Origin: a virus
Lineage: Duplodnaviria > Heunggongvirae > Uroviricota > Caudoviricetes
Length of the DNA stretch: 6,191 bases
Virus record (IMG/VR): IMGVR_UViG_3300029437_000087
Coordinates: 1-6,191 of that record
Strand: one strand, 5' to 3'
Of the stretch, positions 333 through 6,191 are shown piece by piece. How positions within the stretch are numbered: the first letter of the stretch is position 1; each line of letters opens with the position of its first letter. The position numbers were made by a program, and so were the translations under genes. Under the pieces are notes generated by a model. That model ran no database searches. It worked only from the letters and a program-made list of their open reading frames with translations, and was not told the DNA's origin.

Positions 333-696
333 CAAACGGCATCAACTCACAATGCGCCTGAACGAATCCGGCCCCATAAGCTGTATACGGGTCGACGAAG
401 GTCACACGGTAATCACGGCCCTGATACGTCACGATATCGGCATCACGGCCAGTCTGTCCCTGCGTCAGTCGCTCAGTCGTCACAATCAGAATTGCACCAC
501 TGATTACCTGCCCGGCCTGCATACGACGGTTTTCCAGAGAGCGATCAACAGTAACGACTCCGGCAAACTGCTTTTTAACTTCGCTGTCGCTGCCGATTCC
601 GTCCTCATCCACCGTTTGCACACGGCGTGTTACCCACAAATTGAAGTCGCAAAAATCGGGGTCAAAAAGCACATCTGTTACATCAAGAGTCGGCAT
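307..696 (-). CDS. hypothetical phage head-tail (neck) region protein, 129 aa
   Basis: ORF-track ORF. ATG at 696..694 preceded by GAGGG with 6-nt spacing (minus-strand context GTGAGGGATAAAGATG). Start overlaps the upstream gene's stop by 14 nt. Same orientation and packing as the neighbouring structural genes. No family recognised from sequence alone. Confidence 0.6.
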   Translation of the reverse strand: MPTLDVTDVLFDPDFCDFNLWVTRRVQTVDEDGIGSDSEVKKQFAGVVTVDRSLENRRMQAGQVISGAILIVTTERLTQGQTGRDADIVTYQGRDYRVTFVDPYTAYGAGFVQAHCELMPFDGGTPVEQ

Positions 697-1198
697 CTTT
701 ATCCCTCACTACATGGGTAATAGCTCTGCGATATTGCCCGGTGTCAATTAATGGTTTCGCCAGATCGGTTCCGGGAGATTCGCCAGCAACACGCCGGGCG
801 AGTTCCAGTGTTGCCCCCTTGCGCCCCCGACGAGCCCGGGCTTCAACAGTACTGTCAGCAAGCGGCGTAAAGCCGGTAATGGTCATGTAACGCCTGACGC
901 CATTAACGGCCAGCGTTCCGGCACGGTTGAGTGCACTTTCTGCTCCCGCANNNNNNNNNNTCTGCTCTTCTGCCGATTTAACGCCGGGGACCAGGTGAGG
1001 TCGTGGCGGGATGTTCTGCTCTGGTGAGCCGTATTCGTTGAGGTAACCGATGCCCGCATTACCAAACGGAACATCATCCCGTTCGCTGTCTTCCGAAGGG
1101 ATGCCGACCAGCACATCTTTTTTGGTTAACGACCTGAGCGCATCCAGAATGGCCTTAGCGTTATCCACCCTCGTTGTTACACCGCTTTTGAAACTCAT
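683..1198 (-). CDS. putative head-tail joining / virion morphogenesis protein (HK97 gp10-like), 171 aa, interrupted by a 10-N run
   Basis: ORF-track ORF. The ATG at 1198..1196 overlaps the TGA of the upstream gene (ATGA, 4-nt overlap). Motifs [10 protein letters not shown] and [12 protein letters not shown] resemble the PARPF / DTG-LR-SI motifs I recall in HK97 gp10 / Mu G-type proteins; this is recollection, not an alignment. Residues translated as XXXX come from N bases at 951..960. Confidence 0.55.
951..960. other. run of 10 ambiguous bases (N) inside the 683..1198 CDS
   Basis: Literal nnnnnnnnnn in the sequence. The flanking reading frame is continuous across it only if the true length is 10 nt (or 10 plus a multiple of 3). 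Confidence 0.99.
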
Positions 1199-1602
1199 AG
1201 CTGGCGACCGCCTGCACCGAACATCGTGATCAACTGATAAAATTCAGCGCCATATCGGGTGTTATTCCAGAAACCTGCATCAGGATTCAGCGTCGCGCTG
1301 GTGTCATAGCTGACGCTTACCTTATCCACGGACTTTGAGGACTGAACACCATTGGTTGAACCGCCCGGACCACCAGCCAGCATCGCTCTGCTGTCAGCCG
1401 CCCAGAGCGTCATGTAGTGAGCAACGAACAACCCGGCAAAGTACGGAAACAACTTTTTGCCGGTGACATTTTCGCTCAGCAGTTCATCGGCCAGATTCAG
1501 ACGGAACCCGATTTGGGCGTCGGGATATTTTGCCGGGTCAGCAAACTGCGGGAAGTCGCGGCGAAAATCACTTACCGCTGGCAGACTTTGATTCTTTGAC
1601 AT
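1195..1602 (-). CDS. DUF4054-like phage protein (head-tail connector region), about 135 aa
   Basis: Within track ORF 1195..1701. The first 30 or so residues from the ATG at 1701 ([21 protein letters not shown]...) look like out-of-frame read-through and overlap the upstream gene, so I prefer the ATG at 1602..1600 ([33 protein letters not shown]...); the ATG at 1614..1612 is an alternative. The [10 protein letters not shown]...YPD N-terminus and the position downstream of the capsid gene fit my recollection of DUF4054 proteins. Confidence 0.55.
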
Positions 1603-1936
1603 CTTTAGCCCCATTACCGCCAGTCCGGGCGGCAGTAATCTGCGCCTGCAGGCTGTCGTTCTGCTCCTGCAGTTTGAGCAATGCATCTTTAAGATCGGCA
1701 ATCAGCTTATCTTTGTCGGCAATCTGCGCTTGCAGGCCGTCGATAATGGGTTGCAGATCATCGGTGTCGCTAATCACGCTTTCGGAAAGCTCAGAGTGCG
1801 CCTGGGTGAACCAGTGCGACGCGACCTCTTCCGGTACGTTATGCCGTCCCCGGCCAAACTCCTGTTTTGACTGATCGCCGAGCGTCAGCGTAAACGGGGT
1901 GTGAACATGGATGGTAACCAGCTTTTCTTTCGCCAT
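1568..1936 (-). CDS. hypothetical phage protein with C-terminal coiled coil, 123 aa
   Basis: Within track ORF 1568..2167, but that extension overlaps the capsid gene and reads as nonsense (MVWGIRIAWLRTPTIKNTSATRWFRFRACRC...). The internal ATG at 1936..1934 has a good Shine-Dalgarno (minus-strand TGAAGGAAACTGAAATG), giving [43 protein letters not shown]... The C-terminus [47 protein letters not shown] has heptad-like spacing. Confidence 0.6.
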
Positions 1937-1950
1937 TTCAGTTTCCTTCA

Positions 1951-1966
1951 GGCCCCTTTCGGGGCC
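1951..1966 (-). promoter_or_regulatory. GC-rich stem-loop (6-bp stem GGCCCC/GGGGCC, GAAA tetraloop on the mRNA) between the capsid stop and the next gene's RBS; possible mRNA stabiliser or partial attenuator
   Basis: Plus strand 1951..1966 is GGCCCCTTTCGGGGCC, a perfect inverted repeat. On the minus-strand transcript it reads TGA-TAACCAGAAT-GGCCCCGAAAGGGGCC-TGAAGGAAACTGAA-ATG. There is no U-tract after the stem, so it is not a canonical intrinsic terminator. Confidence 0.4.
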
Positions 1967-1976
1967 ATTCTGGTTA

Positions 1977-2918
1977 TCAGATACCGTCCACATAGGACAG
2001 AGTTTCTTTATACACTGGCTCGACTGCACCCAGCTTGCCGTAGTAAGTGACGATCTGATACAGGCCGCGATACTGCACCGGCACGCTCTGAAGCGGAACC
2101 AGCGGGTAGCGGACGTATTTTTTATCGTTGGTGTACGCAACCATGCGATCCTTATTCCCCACACCACGGCCTTTCAGCCATTTAACCGCGCGGATATTCA
2201 GCGGAACACCGTTCTGGTGATAGCTGATGGTGTTGGTCTGAAGGTACGTCAACAGGGACTGGTTACCCGCAGATGAAACGATGATGCTGGACAACAGAGC
2301 AAACTGTTCAGGCGGGATCAGCAAATCACGCGGGACCACAGAGTAACCAGAAGCGGCCCACGCATCAGACAGCACCTGGTTAATGCTTGCGCGGATTTCG
2401 TCCGGTGTTGAGGTTGCCCACGTTTTGGCAGCGTTGTTGACAGGCACGCCGTCCAGGGTAACAAGGCCTTTCAGGTTTAATGCGGAATCGCCAACATATA
2501 CCTGTTCATCGTTATCCATCTGCCATTTCAGTTGCATCCCGTCATACTTCTGCGTATCAATCGGGCGGCCGACCTGCTGAGCAGCCTGCAATTCTATGAC
2601 CGTCCAGCCAAGTTCCATCCCCCACAGGTTCAGCGGGTTACCGGATTTGCCGGTATCCACGTTCACGCCAGCAATAGCGGTTGAGTCTTTGCCTACCCAG
2701 TTTTTGCCATTCGGATTTGCACCAGTACCCGCAGCGGCGAAGCTGGTATTCGTCCAGCTGGAAATGTCATCTGCGATAGAGACATCTTCACGCAACTGAA
2801 TATCGCGGGTCCAGGTGTACCCCACCAGTGGCAGGTTCAGCGTCTGGTCGAGTCGCTCCAGCTCCCCGATGAGAAAGGCACCAGAGCTGTCAACGGTTGC
2901 CTGATCAAAAGTAATCAT
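1977..2918 (-). CDS. phage major capsid protein (DUF2184-like family), 313 aa
   Basis: ORF-track ORF. ATG at 2918..2916 with Shine-Dalgarno AGGAA (minus-strand TAAGGAACAGACGAATG). Length, N-terminus (MITFDQATVDSSGAFLIGELERLDQTLNLPLVGYTWTRDI) and position after DUF2213-like and small beta-rich genes match my recollection of the DUF2184 capsid family in BPP-1-like head modules. Not verified by search. Confidence 0.75.
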   Translation of the reverse strand: MITFDQATVDSSGAFLIGELERLDQTLNLPLVGYTWTRDIQLREDVSIADDISSWTNTSFAAAGTGANPNGKNWVGKDSTAIAGVNVDTGKSGNPLNLWGMELGWTVIELQAAQQVGRPIDTQKYDGMQLKWQMDNDEQVYVGDSALNLKGLVTLDGVPVNNAAKTWATSTPDEIRASINQVLSDAWAASGYSVVPRDLLIPPEQFALLSSIIVSSAGNQSLLTYLQTNTISYHQNGVPLNIRAVKWLKGRGVGNKDRMVAYTNDKKYVRYPLVPLQSVPVQYRGLYQIVTYYGKLGAVEPVYKETLSYVDGI

Positions 2919-2929
2919 TCGTCTGTTCC

Positions 2930-3436
2930 TTAAATCTTCCAGGAAATTTCTGCATTGCCGTTAGCATCACCGGCACCTGTGAATTCAGCGTTGGTCAGCA
3001 CCACATTTTTGCCACTGACTGACGTGGACATGAATCCACCCAGCGGCACTTTGATGGATTCATCAGTGGAGACGACAACGTATACCGGGTCGCCTTTTTT
3101 GATAGTGCTGGCATCAAAATCAGAACCGAGATTAACGGTCACGTAGCCACGCTTCATGGCGTCGCCCGGGAAGTTCTTGCCTGTTCCCACCTGGCGAACC
3201 ATGTCCGGCTGCGACGTGGTCGGATAAGGGCGCACGTAGATCCCCTTCACCTTGTCTGCGGTATCACCATCTGCCAGCGGCACGAAAAAACCGTCATCAT
3301 CGTATTTACCAGCCAGCCCATAGGCAGCGAAGGCGTTATCGGATTTAAGGACCACCGGTTCGACGGTTAAGTCCTGCGGGCGAGAGACAGCCCCGGCAAT
3401 ACCAACAGGCATCCGGTACAGAAATACATTATTCAT
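2930..3436 (-). CDS. small phage head structural protein, possible capsid cement/decoration protein, 168 aa
   Basis: ORF-track ORF. ATG at 3436..3434, 3 nt after the upstream stop, with AAGGG upstream. Gly/Val/Thr-rich, beta-like composition. Sits between the DUF2213-like gene and the capsid gene, where cement/decoration genes occur in related head modules. The functional assignment is positional inference. Confidence 0.55.
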   Translation of the reverse strand: MNNVFLYRMPVGIAGAVSRPQDLTVEPVVLKSDNAFAAYGLAGKYDDDGFFVPLADGDTADKVKGIYVRPYPTTSQPDMVRQVGTGKNFPGDAMKRGYVTVNLGSDFDASTIKKGDPVYVVVSTDESIKVPLGGFMSTSVSGKNVVLTNAEFTGAGDANGNAEISWKI

Positions 3437-3439
3437 TTT

Positions 3440-4660
3440 TTACCCTTTACGGTTTGCCCAGAATTCAGCGTTTTGTTTGTTCAGGGAAGCGATACTGGTC
3501 ATGCCCATGTTTAGGCGCTGTGCATCGCCGGTGGTGGCGCGGGTGTTTCGCCCTTTGGCAATCTCAGACACGGCATTAAACGCCATGTCGACCGATTGTT
3601 TCGGCAATTTGCGGATATCCGCATCACCGACTATCTGGCGAACCAGCGTTTTGTCAGCGGAAGCCAGAACCTCGCGTTTGAACGCGGTCGGTTTCATCTT
3701 ACGGCTCAGATCGATACCCGGAACAATAACTTCGGCACGCCAGGCTGAGTCACCAGTAATCGTGGTTTCCTCTTCATCGTCCTCGCCGTCACCGGTCGGA
3801 TTATCGTCAGGCTTATTATCGTTATCGCCCGTGGCATTTCCTTCCAGCTTAGCCAGCAGGGCTTTCAGTAATGTTTTGAGGTCATCATCACTGTCGCCGG
3901 TTGGGCCTCCCCCCATCTCTGGTGCTTTGTCCGGTAGTGGTTGCTGCGGGGACAGGTTGATATTGAGATTAACGCCCTGCGGCAAATCCCCCTCATCTCC
4001 TGTAACCGATGCGGGAGCCGACTCCACCAGTTCGTTCATGGTGTCGGCATCTCCTGTCTTGATGGCCGCACGCATGCGGTTCCACCAGTTTTTCTTTTGA
4101 TTTGCCATTGTGTCTCTGTCTCCAATTGCACAACGATTTCCGGCTCTGCCTTTAGGGACAAGAGCCACATGGTTTCCGGTAATATCGACCTGCTCAGCTT
4201 TACCTGGCTCGGTCTGCTCGTACTCCGCGTCATAGCCGCACGACACTTCGCGCAGGCCATCTTCGATAAGCTGAATGGCGTTTTCGTCTTTGACGATAAG
4301 GTCAGCCAGCATCAAATCAGACTGCTCACCCGTCCCGCGCCGGACATTCTGGAGGTGCCCGACAGCAAGCTCTTTCCAGTTCTCGGGATTTACCAGCCGC
4401 ACATTCCCGTTTTCATCTTCAGGATGCAGAATCGTGATGCTCATCCCTTCGAATGAGGCAAGCGTGGCCGGATGGAATACCTGCTCAGGAGAACGCGTGA
4501 CGATTATTTCACCGAACTTATCGGGTTTCAGTTTTGGCAGGTCATCAGCACCATAGAGCTGCTTACCTGTTCGTCCTATCGGCACGTCTCTGCACAGCAA
4601 CGAGCCGTCAGCCAGCTGATAGCGGGTTTCCCCCAGCCGGGTATTGAAAAAATATTTCAT
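3440..4660 (-). CDS. DUF2213-like head morphogenesis protein with acidic scaffold-like C-terminal half (putative prohead protease/scaffold fusion), 406 aa
   Basis: ORF-track ORF. ATG at 4660..4658 with AGGT upstream. N-terminal ~180 aa (..GNHVALVPKGRAGNRCAIGD) resembles what I recall of DUF2213. The C-terminal half is acidic and low-complexity (TGDSDDDLKTLLKALLAKLEGNATGDNDNKPDDNPTGDGEDDEEETTITGD) and then helical, as in scaffolding proteins. Function is inferred, not demonstrated. Confidence 0.7.
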   Translation of the reverse strand: MKYFFNTRLGETRYQLADGSLLCRDVPIGRTGKQLYGADDLPKLKPDKFGEIIVTRSPEQVFHPATLASFEGMSITILHPEDENGNVRLVNPENWKELAVGHLQNVRRGTGEQSDLMLADLIVKDENAIQLIEDGLREVSCGYDAEYEQTEPGKAEQVDITGNHVALVPKGRAGNRCAIGDRDTMANQKKNWWNRMRAAIKTGDADTMNELVESAPASVTGDEGDLPQGVNLNINLSPQQPLPDKAPEMGGGPTGDSDDDLKTLLKALLAKLEGNATGDNDNKPDDNPTGDGEDDEEETTITGDSAWRAEVIVPGIDLSRKMKPTAFKREVLASADKTLVRQIVGDADIRKLPKQSVDMAFNAVSEIAKGRNTRATTGDAQRLNMGMTSIASLNKQNAEFWANRKG

Positions 4661-4674
4661 GTGTTACCTGCGAT

Positions 4675-5448
4675 TCAGGCGGGATAAGATTGGGAGGTGG
4701 GAAAAACGATTTCTTTATAACAGCGACAATTCGGGAGCTCGCCAGCGTGACCTGTCATGCCGTCAAGCGTTGGAGGTTTGCCCCATTCGACAAATTTACC
4801 TTCCATTTCCCGATGAGAATGCCTGACGTCACCATCTTCGGCTGTACGCCAGATATAACCATTCGAACCAATTGACAGCGCACGCGCCTGATCCAGCGCG
4901 CCGGTTGCACGTCCAAGTTCAGTACGGGCAATCAGGTCAGCTCTGGACTTTGCTATATCACCCGATGCGGCTATTTCTTTAGCAAAATATTCTGCTCTCC
5001 CACCGGTCACAACAGCTTCTGTCGCCCGATTCTGGATGTCGTACACCCTGTCAGCCGCCTCGAGGGGGAGCGATTTGATGTACTTGACCTGTTCGGCGAT
5101 GATGGATTGCATCACCTGGCCCACAGGAGCGCTTTCCACAAGATTGCGGAGCTCGCGACTGATGTTCTTGCTGTGTTGCCGCCAAACTTTCTCGTTCTGC
5201 CGGGTTAGGTCCGCAGTAAAGTTTTCCGCGACCTTTGTCGCCCAGGGGGTGATGATTTCACTGTAGCGTTCCAGCGCCTCAATAATTTCCGTGATACTGT
5301 CATTTGAACCATCGTAGCGACCATTTACGATGTCTCCGACCGCCCGCGCTATCCTGCGTAGGCTGGTTCGATAGCGGATTTCCGCCTGACGGTTCCTGCG
5401 GTTCGTCATCAGATTCGCCGATGCCGGGCGGCGCTTCATCTTCGGCAT
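4675..5448 (-). CDS. phage head morphogenesis protein, Mu F / SPP1 gp7 family, 257 aa
   Basis: ORF-track ORF. ATG at 5448..5446 with GAGGA 8 nt upstream. The C-terminal signature ADLIARTE ... DGDVRHSHREMEGK ... GELPNCRCY matches the conserved core of MuF-like minor head proteins as I recall it. The ORF ends right after this core, so there is no C-terminal cargo domain. Confidence 0.85.
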   Translation of the reverse strand: MPKMKRRPASANLMTNRRNRQAEIRYRTSLRRIARAVGDIVNGRYDGSNDSITEIIEALERYSEIITPWATKVAENFTADLTRQNEKVWRQHSKNISRELRNLVESAPVGQVMQSIIAEQVKYIKSLPLEAADRVYDIQNRATEAVVTGGRAEYFAKEIAASGDIAKSRADLIARTELGRATGALDQARALSIGSNGYIWRTAEDGDVRHSHREMEGKFVEWGKPPTLDGMTGHAGELPNCRCYKEIVFPTSQSYPA

Positions 5449-6191
5449 TCTCGATGTCCTCGTCGGTAATGGATGCCCCGATGCCGGTTACGTCAGAATT
5501 TTCGCGCAAATCAGTCATAGCGGCTTTCAGTGTCATCAGACCATCACCCAGCGCCGTACTGATTGCGTTGGTAGTGTTTAACGCCACCGTTGAGCGATCG
5601 ACATCAGACATTTGCCAGAGCGGGTTAAACTCAAACGTGAAATCGTCCGGCAGCGGCTTGCCAAGCTCCGAACGATGCATGATGTCCAGTATCCGCCGCA
5701 CCGGAAGACGTAAACGCCTCTCCTGTAACGAGCTTACCCGGTCGTAATAGTTGGCAAGGTCTGCATCGCCGGTAGAAAATCCTTTCGGGGACTGTCCGAA
5801 CAACCGCACCAGTGGGATACCAACAGCGCCACTAATCTGTTCTGCAAACTGCGAAAGGATGTCATCCAGACCACTGAAGCTGTACTGATGCGTTTCAAAC
5901 TTATCCCGCGAGTCCATGAGTGTCATACCTTCATTGCTCTGGAACTGTCGAATCAGGTCGATATTCTTCAGCAACGCTTCATACGCAGGACCACCAAGTG
6001 CGATAAGCTCGCGTAGCTTCTCCACGCTGTAGGTGCGCAGATGCGCCTTGTAGACCAGCTGCGCCGCGCCGACAGTAGCGCTGTCGAACGCGGTAAGACG
6101 ATCCCAGATACGCTCTACAACCGACATTCCCCATTCGTTCTCGGTCATCTTCTGCTGAAATGGCAGCGTGACGCCATCAAAGCGAATCAGG
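5300..6191 (-). CDS. phage portal protein, C-terminal part (5' end of gene lies beyond window end)
   Basis: Track ORF 5300..6148 begins at an internal Met; I checked that the same frame stays open from 6149 to 6190 (..LIRFDGVTLPFQQK-MTENEW..), so the gene starts outside the window. Lies directly upstream of the MuF-like gene, the usual portal position. Acidic disordered C-terminal tail. Family call is from context and recollection. Confidence 0.7.
   Translation of the reverse strand, partial: LIRFDGVTLPFQQKMTENEWGMSVVERIWDRLTAFDSATVGAAQLVYKAHLRTYSVEKLRELIALGGPAYEALLKNIDLIRQFQSNEGMTLMDSRDKFETHQYSFSGLDDILSQFAEQISGAVGIPLVRLFGQSPKGFSTGDADLANYYDRVSSLQERRLRLPVRRILDIMHRSELGKPLPDDFTFEFNPLWQMSDVDRSTVALNTTNAISTALGDGLMTLKAAMTDLRENSDVTGIGASITDEDIENAEDEAPPGIGESDDEPQEPSGGNPLSNQPTQDSAGGRRHRKWSLRWFK

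What the first reader, a model, noticed from the sequence alone, without database searches (positions are those of the whole stretch)
3440..4130. Possible nested in-frame internal start producing a scaffold-only protein from the DUF2213-like gene
At the boundary between the DUF2213-like N-terminal domain and the acidic scaffold-like half there is an in-frame ATG (4108..4106; ..CAIGDRDT-MANQKKNWWNRMRAAIKTGD..). The minus-strand context is TGCAATTGGAGACAGAGACACA-ATG, with GGAG 11 nt upstream and AGAGA nearer. The local sequence is unusually AT-rich (4090..4110). An internal start here would yield a 222-aa protein identical to the C-terminal half, the same arrangement as lambda C/Nu3, where the scaffold is translated from an internal start within the protease gene.
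Basis: partly seen in the sequence, partly recalled or inferred. Interest (0 to 1): 0.5.

Follow-up and report, generated by a model that had tools for sequence, protein, structure and literature searches.

The report
Hidden scaffold gene inside phage protease gene
A prophage head gene annotated as one "DUF2213" protein very probably makes two proteins, a full-length capsid-maturation protease and, from a conserved internal ribosome-binding site and ATG, a shorter scaffold-only protein; this design is known from phages lambda and Mu and from herpesviruses but is not annotated for this large phage family.

Summary
ATG 4108..4106 (minus strand) is in frame (Met185 of the 406-aa gene 3440..4660) and GGAG lies 11 nt upstream. 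It sits in the most AT-rich, least structured part of the gene and would give a 222-aa product.

In the window alone this is not beyond chance. Comparison makes it compelling. In 95 non-redundant homologues (at most 80% identity), every gene has a start codon (92 ATG, 3 GTG) just after the conserved end of the N-terminal domain. Its Shine-Dalgarno match is far stronger than at other in-frame Mets, and stronger than at the gene's own start in 71 of 78. The Met and its SD move together. When the Met is close, the conserved Gly is encoded GGA in 22 of 24 genes (15.5% elsewhere).

The homologue Pa193 gp24 has a published scaffold-like fragment bound inside the capsid.

No experimental proof exists yet.

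The parts
3440..4660 (-). Full-length gene, 406 aa (44.3 kDa): N-terminal prohead-protease-like domain, linker, and C-terminal scaffold-like half
   Evidence: ORF; PF09979 E 3.5e-42; PHROG 1961 plus 'head maturation protease' PHROGs 530 and 12864. It lies between the MuF-like gene and the cement and major-capsid genes.
4118..4615 (-). DUF2213 domain (residues 16-181), predicted assemblin / T4 gp21-like protease fold
4424..4426 (-). His79 codon, candidate catalytic residue
   Evidence: Invariant in 104 sequences and nearly invariant in the 62 diverse sequences. The catalytic role is inferred.
4241..4243 (-). Ser140 codon (VSCGY motif), candidate catalytic nucleophile
   Evidence: Invariant in the alignments. 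The catalytic role is inferred.
4169..4171 (-). His164 codon (GNHVALV motif), candidate third catalytic residue
   Evidence: Invariant in the alignments. The catalytic role is inferred.
4120..4123 (-). Shine-Dalgarno core GGAG for the internal start, formed by the Gly180 (GGA) and Asp181 (GAC) codons, 11 nt before the ATG
   Evidence: Sequence. Duplex energy with the 16S 3' end is -6.4 kcal/mol. The Gly is encoded GGA in 22 of 24 homologues whose Met lies within 3 residues after the Asp, against 15.5% GGA at other Gly codons.
4106..4108 (-). Internal in-frame start codon ATG (Met185)
   Evidence: Invariant in 120 close homologues. An equivalent start is present in 95 of 95 non-redundant homologues, with position and SD moving together. 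It lies in the low-confidence linker 174-189.
4090..4110 (-). AT-rich, weakly structured region around and just after the internal start
   Evidence: 29% GC (1st percentile of the gene) and MFE -8.6 against a mean of -15.2. The family-wide mean z is +1.35, meaning less structured.
3440..4108 (-). Nested ORF, 222 aa (23.9 kDa, pI 4.8): the proposed scaffold-only product, identical to the C-terminal half of the full-length protein
   Evidence: PHROG 1961 covers it, E 1.2e-81. Predicted helices 192-213, a disordered acidic stretch 220-292, and a helical domain 300-374.
3539..3763 (-). Conserved helical C-terminal domain (residues 300-374), the likely capsid- or core-binding part shared by both products
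   Evidence: pLDDT above 90; nearly invariant D304, A309, P314, G315, R329, L332 and F361. The binding role is inferred.
4037..4039 (-). Second in-frame ATG (Met208), with GGAG at 4054..4051 and the same 11-nt spacing; a possible additional start in this clade only
   Evidence: SD energy -7.4 kcal/mol. The aligned column is Met in only 28 of 133 diverse sequences and the Gly in only 10 of 133.

Best explanation
Gene 3440..4660 (-) is a combined prohead-protease/scaffold gene that is read from two starts in one frame. Ribosomes starting at ATG 4660 make the 406-aa protein, which is an assemblin/T4 gp21-like serine protease domain (candidate triad His79, Ser140, His164), a flexible linker and a helical/disordered C-terminal half. 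Ribosomes that bind the internal SD (GGAG, 4123..4120) start at ATG 4108 and make only the 222-aa C-terminal half. By analogy with Mu I/Z, lambda C/Nu3 and herpesvirus UL26/UL26.5, the short protein would be the abundant scaffold that co-assembles with the major capsid protein encoded at 1977..2918. The full-length protein carries the same C-terminal assembly domain, so a few protease copies would be built into each procapsid and would then digest the scaffold. What is shown: the sequence features, their family-wide conservation and covariation, the two-domain model and the protease-like fold. What is inferred: that the short product is made, its excess over the long one, its scaffold role and the proteolysis.
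For: 1. Among 135 representatives of 50%-identity clusters, 113 (84%) have a Met within 10 residues after the conserved CxIxD end of the N-domain, against 17% for equal windows elsewhere. The offset varies from +1 to +23 and tracks the start of the next conserved helix.
2. In 95 non-redundant genes (at most 80% identity) from IMG/VR loci, 93 have such a Met. The anti-SD duplex energy upstream has a median of -6.7 kcal/mol, and 83% are at or below -6. For other in-frame Mets the figure is 6%, and for all codons 10% (Mann-Whitney p about 3e-49).
3. The two genes without a Met, and the one with a Met but no SD, each have GTG preceded by GGAG or AGGAGG.
4. The SD moves with the start and is encoded by different residues: GGA-GAY (Gly-Asp), AAG-GAG (Lys-Glu) or GAG-GAG-G.
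5. There is selection at a synonymous site. The Gly is GGA in 22 of 24 genes when the Met is within 3 residues downstream, 7 of 22 when it is farther, and 15.5% at 3268 other Gly codons.
6. The internal SD is stronger than the gene's own SD in 71 of 78 genes.
7. The start region is unusually unstructured (mean z +1.35). The second residue is K, A, S or T in 76% of genes. SD spacing peaks at 6-9 nt.
8. The same layout occurs in distant phages: KpV79, Bcep43, RHEph04, PB1 gp22, Vibrio D93 and Synechococcus Yong-M3-232.
9. The model has two domains with a low-confidence linker 174-189.
11. Pa193 gp24 is a family member (E 1.1e-8). Its residues 286-326 were seen bound inside the capsid five-fold vertices and interpreted as a scaffold remnant (PMC11456595).
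12. Mu I/Z has the same design, AGGAG-N9-ATG.
Against: There is no direct evidence for the 222-aa product: no ribosome profiling, N-terminal sequence or gel band.

In this clade the SD is a minimal GGAG at 11 nt, the long end of the family range.

In the window alone the signal is not above chance, and Met208 looks equally good.

The 95 genes are related to each other, so the p-values overstate independence.

phiEcoM-GJ1 has no internal start codon in the 80 codons examined around the end of the protease domain, so the arrangement is not universal.

The protease assignment rests on a predicted structure. Foldseek against PDB found nothing significant, and no peptidase Pfam family is hit.

The C-terminal half does not align with Pa193/PB1 gp24, so transferring the scaffold role to it is indirect.

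A small coiled-coil ORF after the capsid gene has a weak, sub-threshold Phage_scaffold hit. It could be an alternative or additional scaffold.
Confidence: 0.82

Rival explanations
1. P2 gpO-type mechanism. Only the full-length protein is made, and the scaffold part is released by autoproteolysis. The internal ATG and GGAG are then incidental consequences of the amino-acid sequence (Gly-Asp ... Met).
For: The window signal alone is within chance. One family member has a weak Phage_GPO hit, E 0.051. phiEcoM-GJ1 lacks an internal start yet keeps the two-part protein. The Pa193 authors could not tell whether gp24 is cleaved.
Against: It does not explain why a start codon with an SD at initiation spacing is kept in 95 of 95 diverged genes while moving position. 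It also does not explain why Val replacements are always GTG, why GGA is chosen for Gly only when the Met is near, or why the mRNA is unstructured there. Autoproteolysis can coexist with an internal start, as it does in herpesviruses.
Confidence: 0.07
2. In this clade the functional internal start is Met208 (4039..4037), instead of or in addition to Met185, giving a 199-aa product.
For: Met208 has the same GGAG-N11-ATG layout and a slightly better duplex energy (-7.4), within a near-repeat of the peptide motif, IGDRDTM and TGDADTM.
Against: The Met208 column is Met in only 28 of 133 diverse sequences, and the Gly that supplies its SD is present in 10 of 133. The family-wide SD signal peaks at the Met185-equivalent position and falls off within 4 codons downstream. 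Only 6% of other in-frame Mets have a strong SD. Met208 would also remove a conserved helix (192-202) from the product.
Confidence: 0.06
3. The SD-like sequence is a translational pause site at the domain boundary that aids folding of the protease domain, or it is an unused relic of an ancient fusion of separate protease and scaffold genes.
For: It lies exactly at a domain boundary. Fusion and fission of head genes is common in phages (general knowledge).
Against: A pause site needs no start codon 4-13 nt downstream, no K/A/S/T second residue and no open mRNA structure. A relic would not be maintained by compensatory movement over this divergence.
Confidence: 0.04

Closest known systems
Phage Mu gene I (protease) / gene Z (scaffold, p20), nested in frame
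   Same: The position in a portal / MuF-like / protease-scaffold / major-capsid module is the same. The internal start lies in the linker with an SD, AGGAG-N9-ATG in Mu. The short product equals the C-terminal part of the long one.
Phage lambda C (protease) / Nu3 (scaffold)
   Same: It is a nested in-frame scaffold translated from an internal start in the protease gene (own knowledge; also cited in bioRxiv 10.64898/2026.09.13.751334).
   Different: To my knowledge lambda C belongs to a different protease family (S49, ClpP/SppA-like). Here the fold matches T4 gp21 and assemblin, and no S49 hit was found. The resemblance is in gene design, not ancestry.
Herpesvirus UL26 (assemblin protease-scaffold) / UL26.5 (scaffold)
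   Different: To my knowledge UL26.5 has its own promoter and mRNA. Here the signal is a ribosome-binding site within one mRNA, and no convincing internal promoter was found. Sequence identity is only 16-21% over about 100 residues.
Pseudomonas phage Pa193 gp24 / PB1 gp22 ('putative scaffolding protein', PDB 9B40)
   Same: It has the same family N-domain (E 1.1e-8; hhalign 96%) and the same gene position before the cement and capsid genes. PB1 has an SD-ATG after the domain, GAGGG-N7-ATG at Met182.
   Different: The C-terminal halves do not align. The Pa193 paper treats gp24 as one 51.8-kDa scaffolding protein and never uses the word protease.
Phage P2 gpO and archaeal virus HFTV1 gp17/gp17.5
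   Same: Both are protease-scaffold fusion proteins. For HFTV1, an internal in-frame start giving the scaffold was shown by ribosome profiling and mass spectrometry.
   Different: P2 gpO is reported as a single product that is processed by itself. No sequence relation to the window protein was found, apart from one weak Phage_GPO hit in one family member.

Membership tests
Nested in-frame protease/scaffold gene pair (Mu I/Z, lambda C/Nu3, HSV UL26/UL26.5 design) | N-terminal domain is a capsid maturation protease | tested here: met
Nested in-frame protease/scaffold gene pair (Mu I/Z, lambda C/Nu3, HSV UL26/UL26.5 design) | In-frame internal start codon with a ribosome-binding site at the protease/scaffold boundary | tested here: met
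   ATG 4108..4106 with GGAG 11 nt upstream, inside the low-confidence linker 174-189, in an AT-rich, unstructured context.
Nested in-frame protease/scaffold gene pair (Mu I/Z, lambda C/Nu3, HSV UL26/UL26.5 design) | Internal start maintained by selection in homologues | tested here: met
   95 of 95 non-redundant genes have an SD plus ATG or GTG. The SD and start move together, and there is GGA codon bias at the Gly.
Nested in-frame protease/scaffold gene pair (Mu I/Z, lambda C/Nu3, HSV UL26/UL26.5 design) | C-terminal part acts as the assembly scaffold | tested here: inconclusive
Nested in-frame protease/scaffold gene pair (Mu I/Z, lambda C/Nu3, HSV UL26/UL26.5 design) | The short product is made, and in excess over the long one | not testable with these tools
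   There is only an indirect hint: the internal SD is stronger than the gene-start SD in 71 of 78 genes.
Pfam PF09979 (DUF2213; named Pa193_gp24 in the precomputed Pfam labels seen) | Match to the family HMM above the gathering score | tested here: met
   144.7 bits against a cut-off of 22, E 3.5e-42, residues 16-181.
Assemblin / T4 gp21 / HK97 gp4-type prohead serine proteases | Shared fold | tested here: met
Assemblin / T4 gp21 / HK97 gp4-type prohead serine proteases | Catalytic Ser and His residues in equivalent structural positions | tested here: inconclusive
   His79, Ser140 and His164 are invariant, and their order and spacing resemble the assemblin His/Ser/His triad (own knowledge). 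No residue-level superposition was available.
Assemblin / T4 gp21 / HK97 gp4-type prohead serine proteases | Sequence-profile membership (Peptidase_S21, S77 or S78 HMMs) | tested here: not met
   None of these families was hit at E up to 1 by any of 62 diverse members. The relation is at fold level only.
P2 gpO-type scaffold-protease (single product, self-processing) | Phage_GPO HMM match and no internal start | tested here: not met
   The window protein has no Phage_GPO hit; one of 62 members hits it at E 0.051. A conserved internal start is present.

The most novel reading that the evidence does not exclude
The herpesvirus gene plan is an assemblin-fold protease fused to the scaffold, with a nested in-frame gene for the scaffold alone. 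On this reading, that plan is the standard state of a very large tailed-phage family, and it is kept in place by selection on an internal ribosome-binding site that even dictates residues and codons at the end of the protease domain (Gly-Asp as GGA-GAY, Lys-Glu as AAG-GAG). The family had 6410 cluster representatives at E up to 1e-3 and 573 phage records. Together with Mu, lambda and the archaeal virus HFTV1, this would argue that the nested protease/scaffold design is ancestral to, or repeatedly selected in, the whole HK97-fold virus lineage. It would also mean that hundreds of phage genomes, including therapeutic Pbunaviruses, lack an annotated scaffold gene.
Probability: 0.3. Interest if true: 0.6.

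Novelty: new member of a known kind. Interest (0 to 1): 0.45.

Why it matters
It would supply the missing scaffold protein for SEN34-like prophages, which are present in 339 of 5426 complete E. coli genomes, and for the wider DUF2213 family. That family includes Pbunaviruses used in phage therapy, Jedunaviruses, Bcep781-like phages and many Vibrio phages.

It also reinterprets Pa193 gp24, published as a 'scaffolding protein', as a protease-scaffold fusion with a probable nested scaffold product. This could help explain how a gp24 fragment stays in the capsid.

Gene callers and curators could add a nested CDS.

The family is also an unusually clean example of an internal ribosome-binding site constraining both codon choice and amino-acid sequence inside a coding region.

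The design itself is textbook, so the gain is in annotation and assembly biology rather than a new principle.

Tried and rejected
- A single-sequence AlphaFold run gave an unusable model (pLDDT 38). It was replaced by a run with a 104-sequence alignment.
- Foldseek against PDB found only insignificant MCE-domain hits. Pfam at E up to 1 gave no peptidase family. phmmer against PDB with the single protein found nothing; the profile search did find Pa193 gp24.
- A 217-aa 'scaffold-only' protein (P0157) looked like a natural split of the gene. It turned out to be a gene call behind a frameshift in the protease domain of one lineage, so I rejected it as independent evidence.
- I looked for an internal sigma-70 promoter, as would fit a herpesvirus-like separate transcript. 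Only two weak consensus matches were found, no more than in shuffled sequence, and neither is well placed.
- hhalign could not align the C-terminal half to PB1 gp22, nor any part to Mu I.
- Literature searches found no paper describing a nested scaffold in DUF2213 genes. The library lacks most subscription journals, so prior description cannot be excluded. No Pa193 supplementary proteomics files are held.

Full report
**What the window is**

The 6191-base window is the head-morphogenesis module of an E. coli prophage, all on the minus strand.
- Portal protein (Phage_portal_3), 5300..6148, running off the window.
- MuF-like head morphogenesis protein, within 4675..5448.
- The DUF2213 gene, 3440..4660.
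- Cement/decoration protein (XM1_gp53 / Phage_cement), 2930..3436.
- Major capsid protein, 1977..2918.
- Neck genes after that.

The window is 97.5% identical to Escherichia phages vB_EcoM-606R2 and relatives, and 84% identical to Salmonella phage SEN34 (Brunovirus). The 3300-4800 segment occurs in 339 of 5426 complete E. coli genomes. There the gene is always annotated as one 'DUF2213 domain-containing protein'.

**Check of the observation**

All the stated facts hold.
- ATG 4108..4106 is codon 185 of the 406-codon gene. The nested product is 222 aa.
- The upstream context is TGCAATTGGAGACAGAGACACA. GGAG (4123..4120) is formed by the Gly180 GGA and Asp181 GAC codons and lies 11 nt from the ATG.
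- The stretch 4110..4090 has 29% GC against 54% for the gene, which is the first percentile.
- The -30..+30 folding energy is -8.6 kcal/mol against a gene mean of -15.2, among the 5% least structured positions.

Taken alone, the window does not prove anything. About 8% of positions in the gene have an equally good anti-SD match, there are ten other in-frame ATGs, and Met208 (4039..4037) has the same GGAG-N11-ATG arrangement.

**Comparative evidence at the protein level**

Met185 is invariant in 120 close homologues (76-98% identity), but so is its whole neighbourhood.

The informative set is the distant one. An exhaustive search of 50%-identity cluster representatives found 6410 relatives. In 135 of them that carry the conserved end of the N-domain (G-N-H-x-A-L-V ... 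G-R-x-G-x-x-C-x-I-x-D), 113 (84%) have a Met within the next 10 residues and 120 within 15. The background in the same proteins is 17% and 24%. The offset ranges from +1 to +23. In a clade with a Cys-rich insert, the Met sits after the insert, directly before the next conserved helix. A residue that is conserved in kind but not in position, inside an otherwise variable linker, is what a start codon looks like.

**Comparative evidence at the DNA level**

Four IMG/VR scans gave 310 loci. After removing duplicates and clustering at 80% identity, 95 genes remained.
- **Start codon and SD strength.** In 93 genes there is a Met within 30 residues of the motif. The duplex energy of the -18..-4 region with the 16S 3' end has a median of -6.7 kcal/mol, and 83% are at or below -6. 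For the 778 other in-frame Mets the median is -2.1 and 6% are at or below -6. For all codon positions, 10% are at or below -6.
- **The exceptions.** The two genes without a Met, and the one whose Met has no SD, each have GTG preceded by GGAG or AGGAGG. So all 95 have an SD plus a start codon.
- **The SD moves with the start.** It is GGAGAY from the Gly-Asp codons when the Met is 1-4 residues after the Asp. It is AAGGAG from Lys-Glu when the Met is 9-11 residues away. It is GAGGAGG in the Cys-insert clade, 17-24 residues away.
- **Synonymous sites show the selection.** The Gly of CxIGD is GGA in 22 of 24 genes with a nearby Met and in 7 of 22 with a distant Met. GGA makes up 15.5% of the 3268 other Gly codons in these genes.
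- **Relative strength.** The internal SD is stronger than that of the gene's own start in 71 of 78 genes. This fits a short product made in excess.
- **Other start-site features.** The region is less structured than the rest of the gene (mean z +1.35; 75% of genes in their own least-structured fifth). The residue after the Met is K, A, S or T in 76%, against roughly 35% after other Mets. The SD-to-ATG spacing peaks at 6-9 nt; this window's 11 nt is at the long end.
- **More distant phage groups.** The same layout is present in Klebsiella KpV79, Burkholderia Bcep43, Rhizobium RHEph04, Pseudomonas PB1 gp22, Vibrio D93 and Synechococcus Yong-M3-232. phiEcoM-GJ1 has no internal start codon and is an exception.

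The genes are phylogenetically related, so the p-values are inflated. The repeated relocation of the SD and start is nonetheless hard to explain without function.

**Structure and the nature of the two halves**

AlphaFold2 with a 104-sequence alignment (mean pLDDT 74) gives the following:
- a confident beta-rich N-domain, residues about 10-173, pLDDT above 90;
- a low-confidence linker at 174-189 that contains Met185;
- helices at 192-213;
- a disordered acidic stretch at 220-292;
- a confident helical domain at 300-374;
- a terminal helix at 390-402.

**Link to experiment in a relative**

The profile of this family matches the N-terminus of Pa193 gp24 (PDB 9B40, 'gp24 Scaffolding protein', E 1.1e-8). 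gp24 sits in the same place, just before the decoration and capsid genes. The Pa193 cryo-EM study found gp24 residues 286-326 as a helix-turn-helix pentamer bound inside the five-fold vertices. It proposed a scaffold remnant, 'possibly cleaved after assembly', and does not mention a protease (PMC11456595). PB1 gp22, its close relative, has GAGGG-N7-ATG at Met182, upstream of that fragment. The C-terminal halves of the E. coli and Pseudomonas proteins do not align, so the scaffold role here is an inference.

**Mechanism proposed**

Two products would come from one frame. The 44-kDa protease-scaffold starts at ATG 4660, which has a weak SD (AGGT, -3.9 kcal/mol). The 24-kDa scaffold starts at ATG 4108. 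The shared C-terminal domain would bring a few protease molecules into the scaffold core of the procapsid, and the protease would then remove the scaffold. This is the logic established for Mu I/Z (annotated in NC_000929, AGGAG-N9-ATG), lambda C/Nu3 and HSV UL26/UL26.5. It was recently shown by ribosome profiling for the archaeal virus HFTV1 gp17/gp17.5 (bioRxiv 10.64898/2026.09.13.751334).

**Rival explanations**

- A gpO-like single product with self-cleavage.
- Met208 as the real or an extra start in this clade.
- A pause site, or a relic of an ancient gene fusion.

The covariation, the GTG substitutions, the codon bias and the mRNA accessibility argue against the first and third. Lack of family conservation argues against the second.

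**Novelty and verdict**

The design is well known, and the family is loosely annotated as 'head maturation protease' in PHROGs and RefSeq. No record inspected annotates the nested ORF, and no paper in the searchable library describes it for DUF2213.

I rate it a new member of a known kind. It is well supported computationally (confidence about 0.8) and moderately interesting, mainly for annotation and for phage assembly studies. Proof needs initiation profiling, N-terminal proteomics or start-codon and SD mutants.

Noticed in passing
window 951-960: There is a run of 10 N (masked or unknown bases) inside ORF 683..1198 (-). It appears as XXXX in the translation.
   Followed up: no
window 1568-2167 (-): This ORF overlaps the 3' end of the capsid gene. 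The real gene probably starts near [10 protein letters not shown] (SEN34_8 equivalent, about 133 aa). Its C-terminus is a coiled coil with a weak, sub-threshold hit to Phage_scaffold PF06810 (E 0.002, 18.5 bits against a cut-off of 35). It could be a second or alternative scaffold-like protein, or the hit could be coiled-coil noise.
   Followed up: no
window 4037-4059 (-) versus 4106-4123 (-): There is a near-repeat at the peptide and DNA level: IGDRDTM (ATT GGA GAC AGA GAC ACA ATG) and TGDADTM (ACA GGA GAT GCC GAC ACC ATG). Both give GGAG-N11-ATG in frame. The second copy is not conserved across the family.
   Followed up: partly
window 4675-5448 and 5300-6148 (-): The longest MuF-like ORF (257 aa) overlaps the portal ORF by about 150 nt. 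Relatives annotate a shorter MuF gene of 197-216 aa, so the true start of the MuF-like gene in the window is uncertain.
   Followed up: no
L312 2462-3654 (also L313 and L314): One lineage (NCBI GCA_963969435.1 and Logan assemblies) carries a frameshift in the protease domain, just before the Ser motif. Gene callers then report a 174-aa DUF2213 fragment and a 217-aa protein that starts exactly at the internal Met. This is a prophage with a broken protease but an intact scaffold ORF.
   Followed up: yes
L316 1744-2808 (phage phiEcoM-GJ1): This distant DUF2213 gene has no in-frame ATG, GTG or TTG in the 80 codons examined around the end of the protease domain. It is an exception that may rely on proteolysis alone.
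   Followed up: partly
L319 4172-5569 (PB1 gp22, homologue of Pa193 gp24): The published Pa193 'scaffolding protein' gp24 has a DUF2213 protease-like N-domain, yet the paper never mentions a protease. PB1 has a candidate internal start at Met182.
   Followed up: partly
Literature: PMC8770471 (B. cenocepacia BCAM1066): A Tn-seq study called DUF2213 an 'essential domain' because transposon insertions mapped only to the C-terminal part of a prophage DUF2213 gene. This is odd for a phage head gene and remains unexplained.
   Followed up: no
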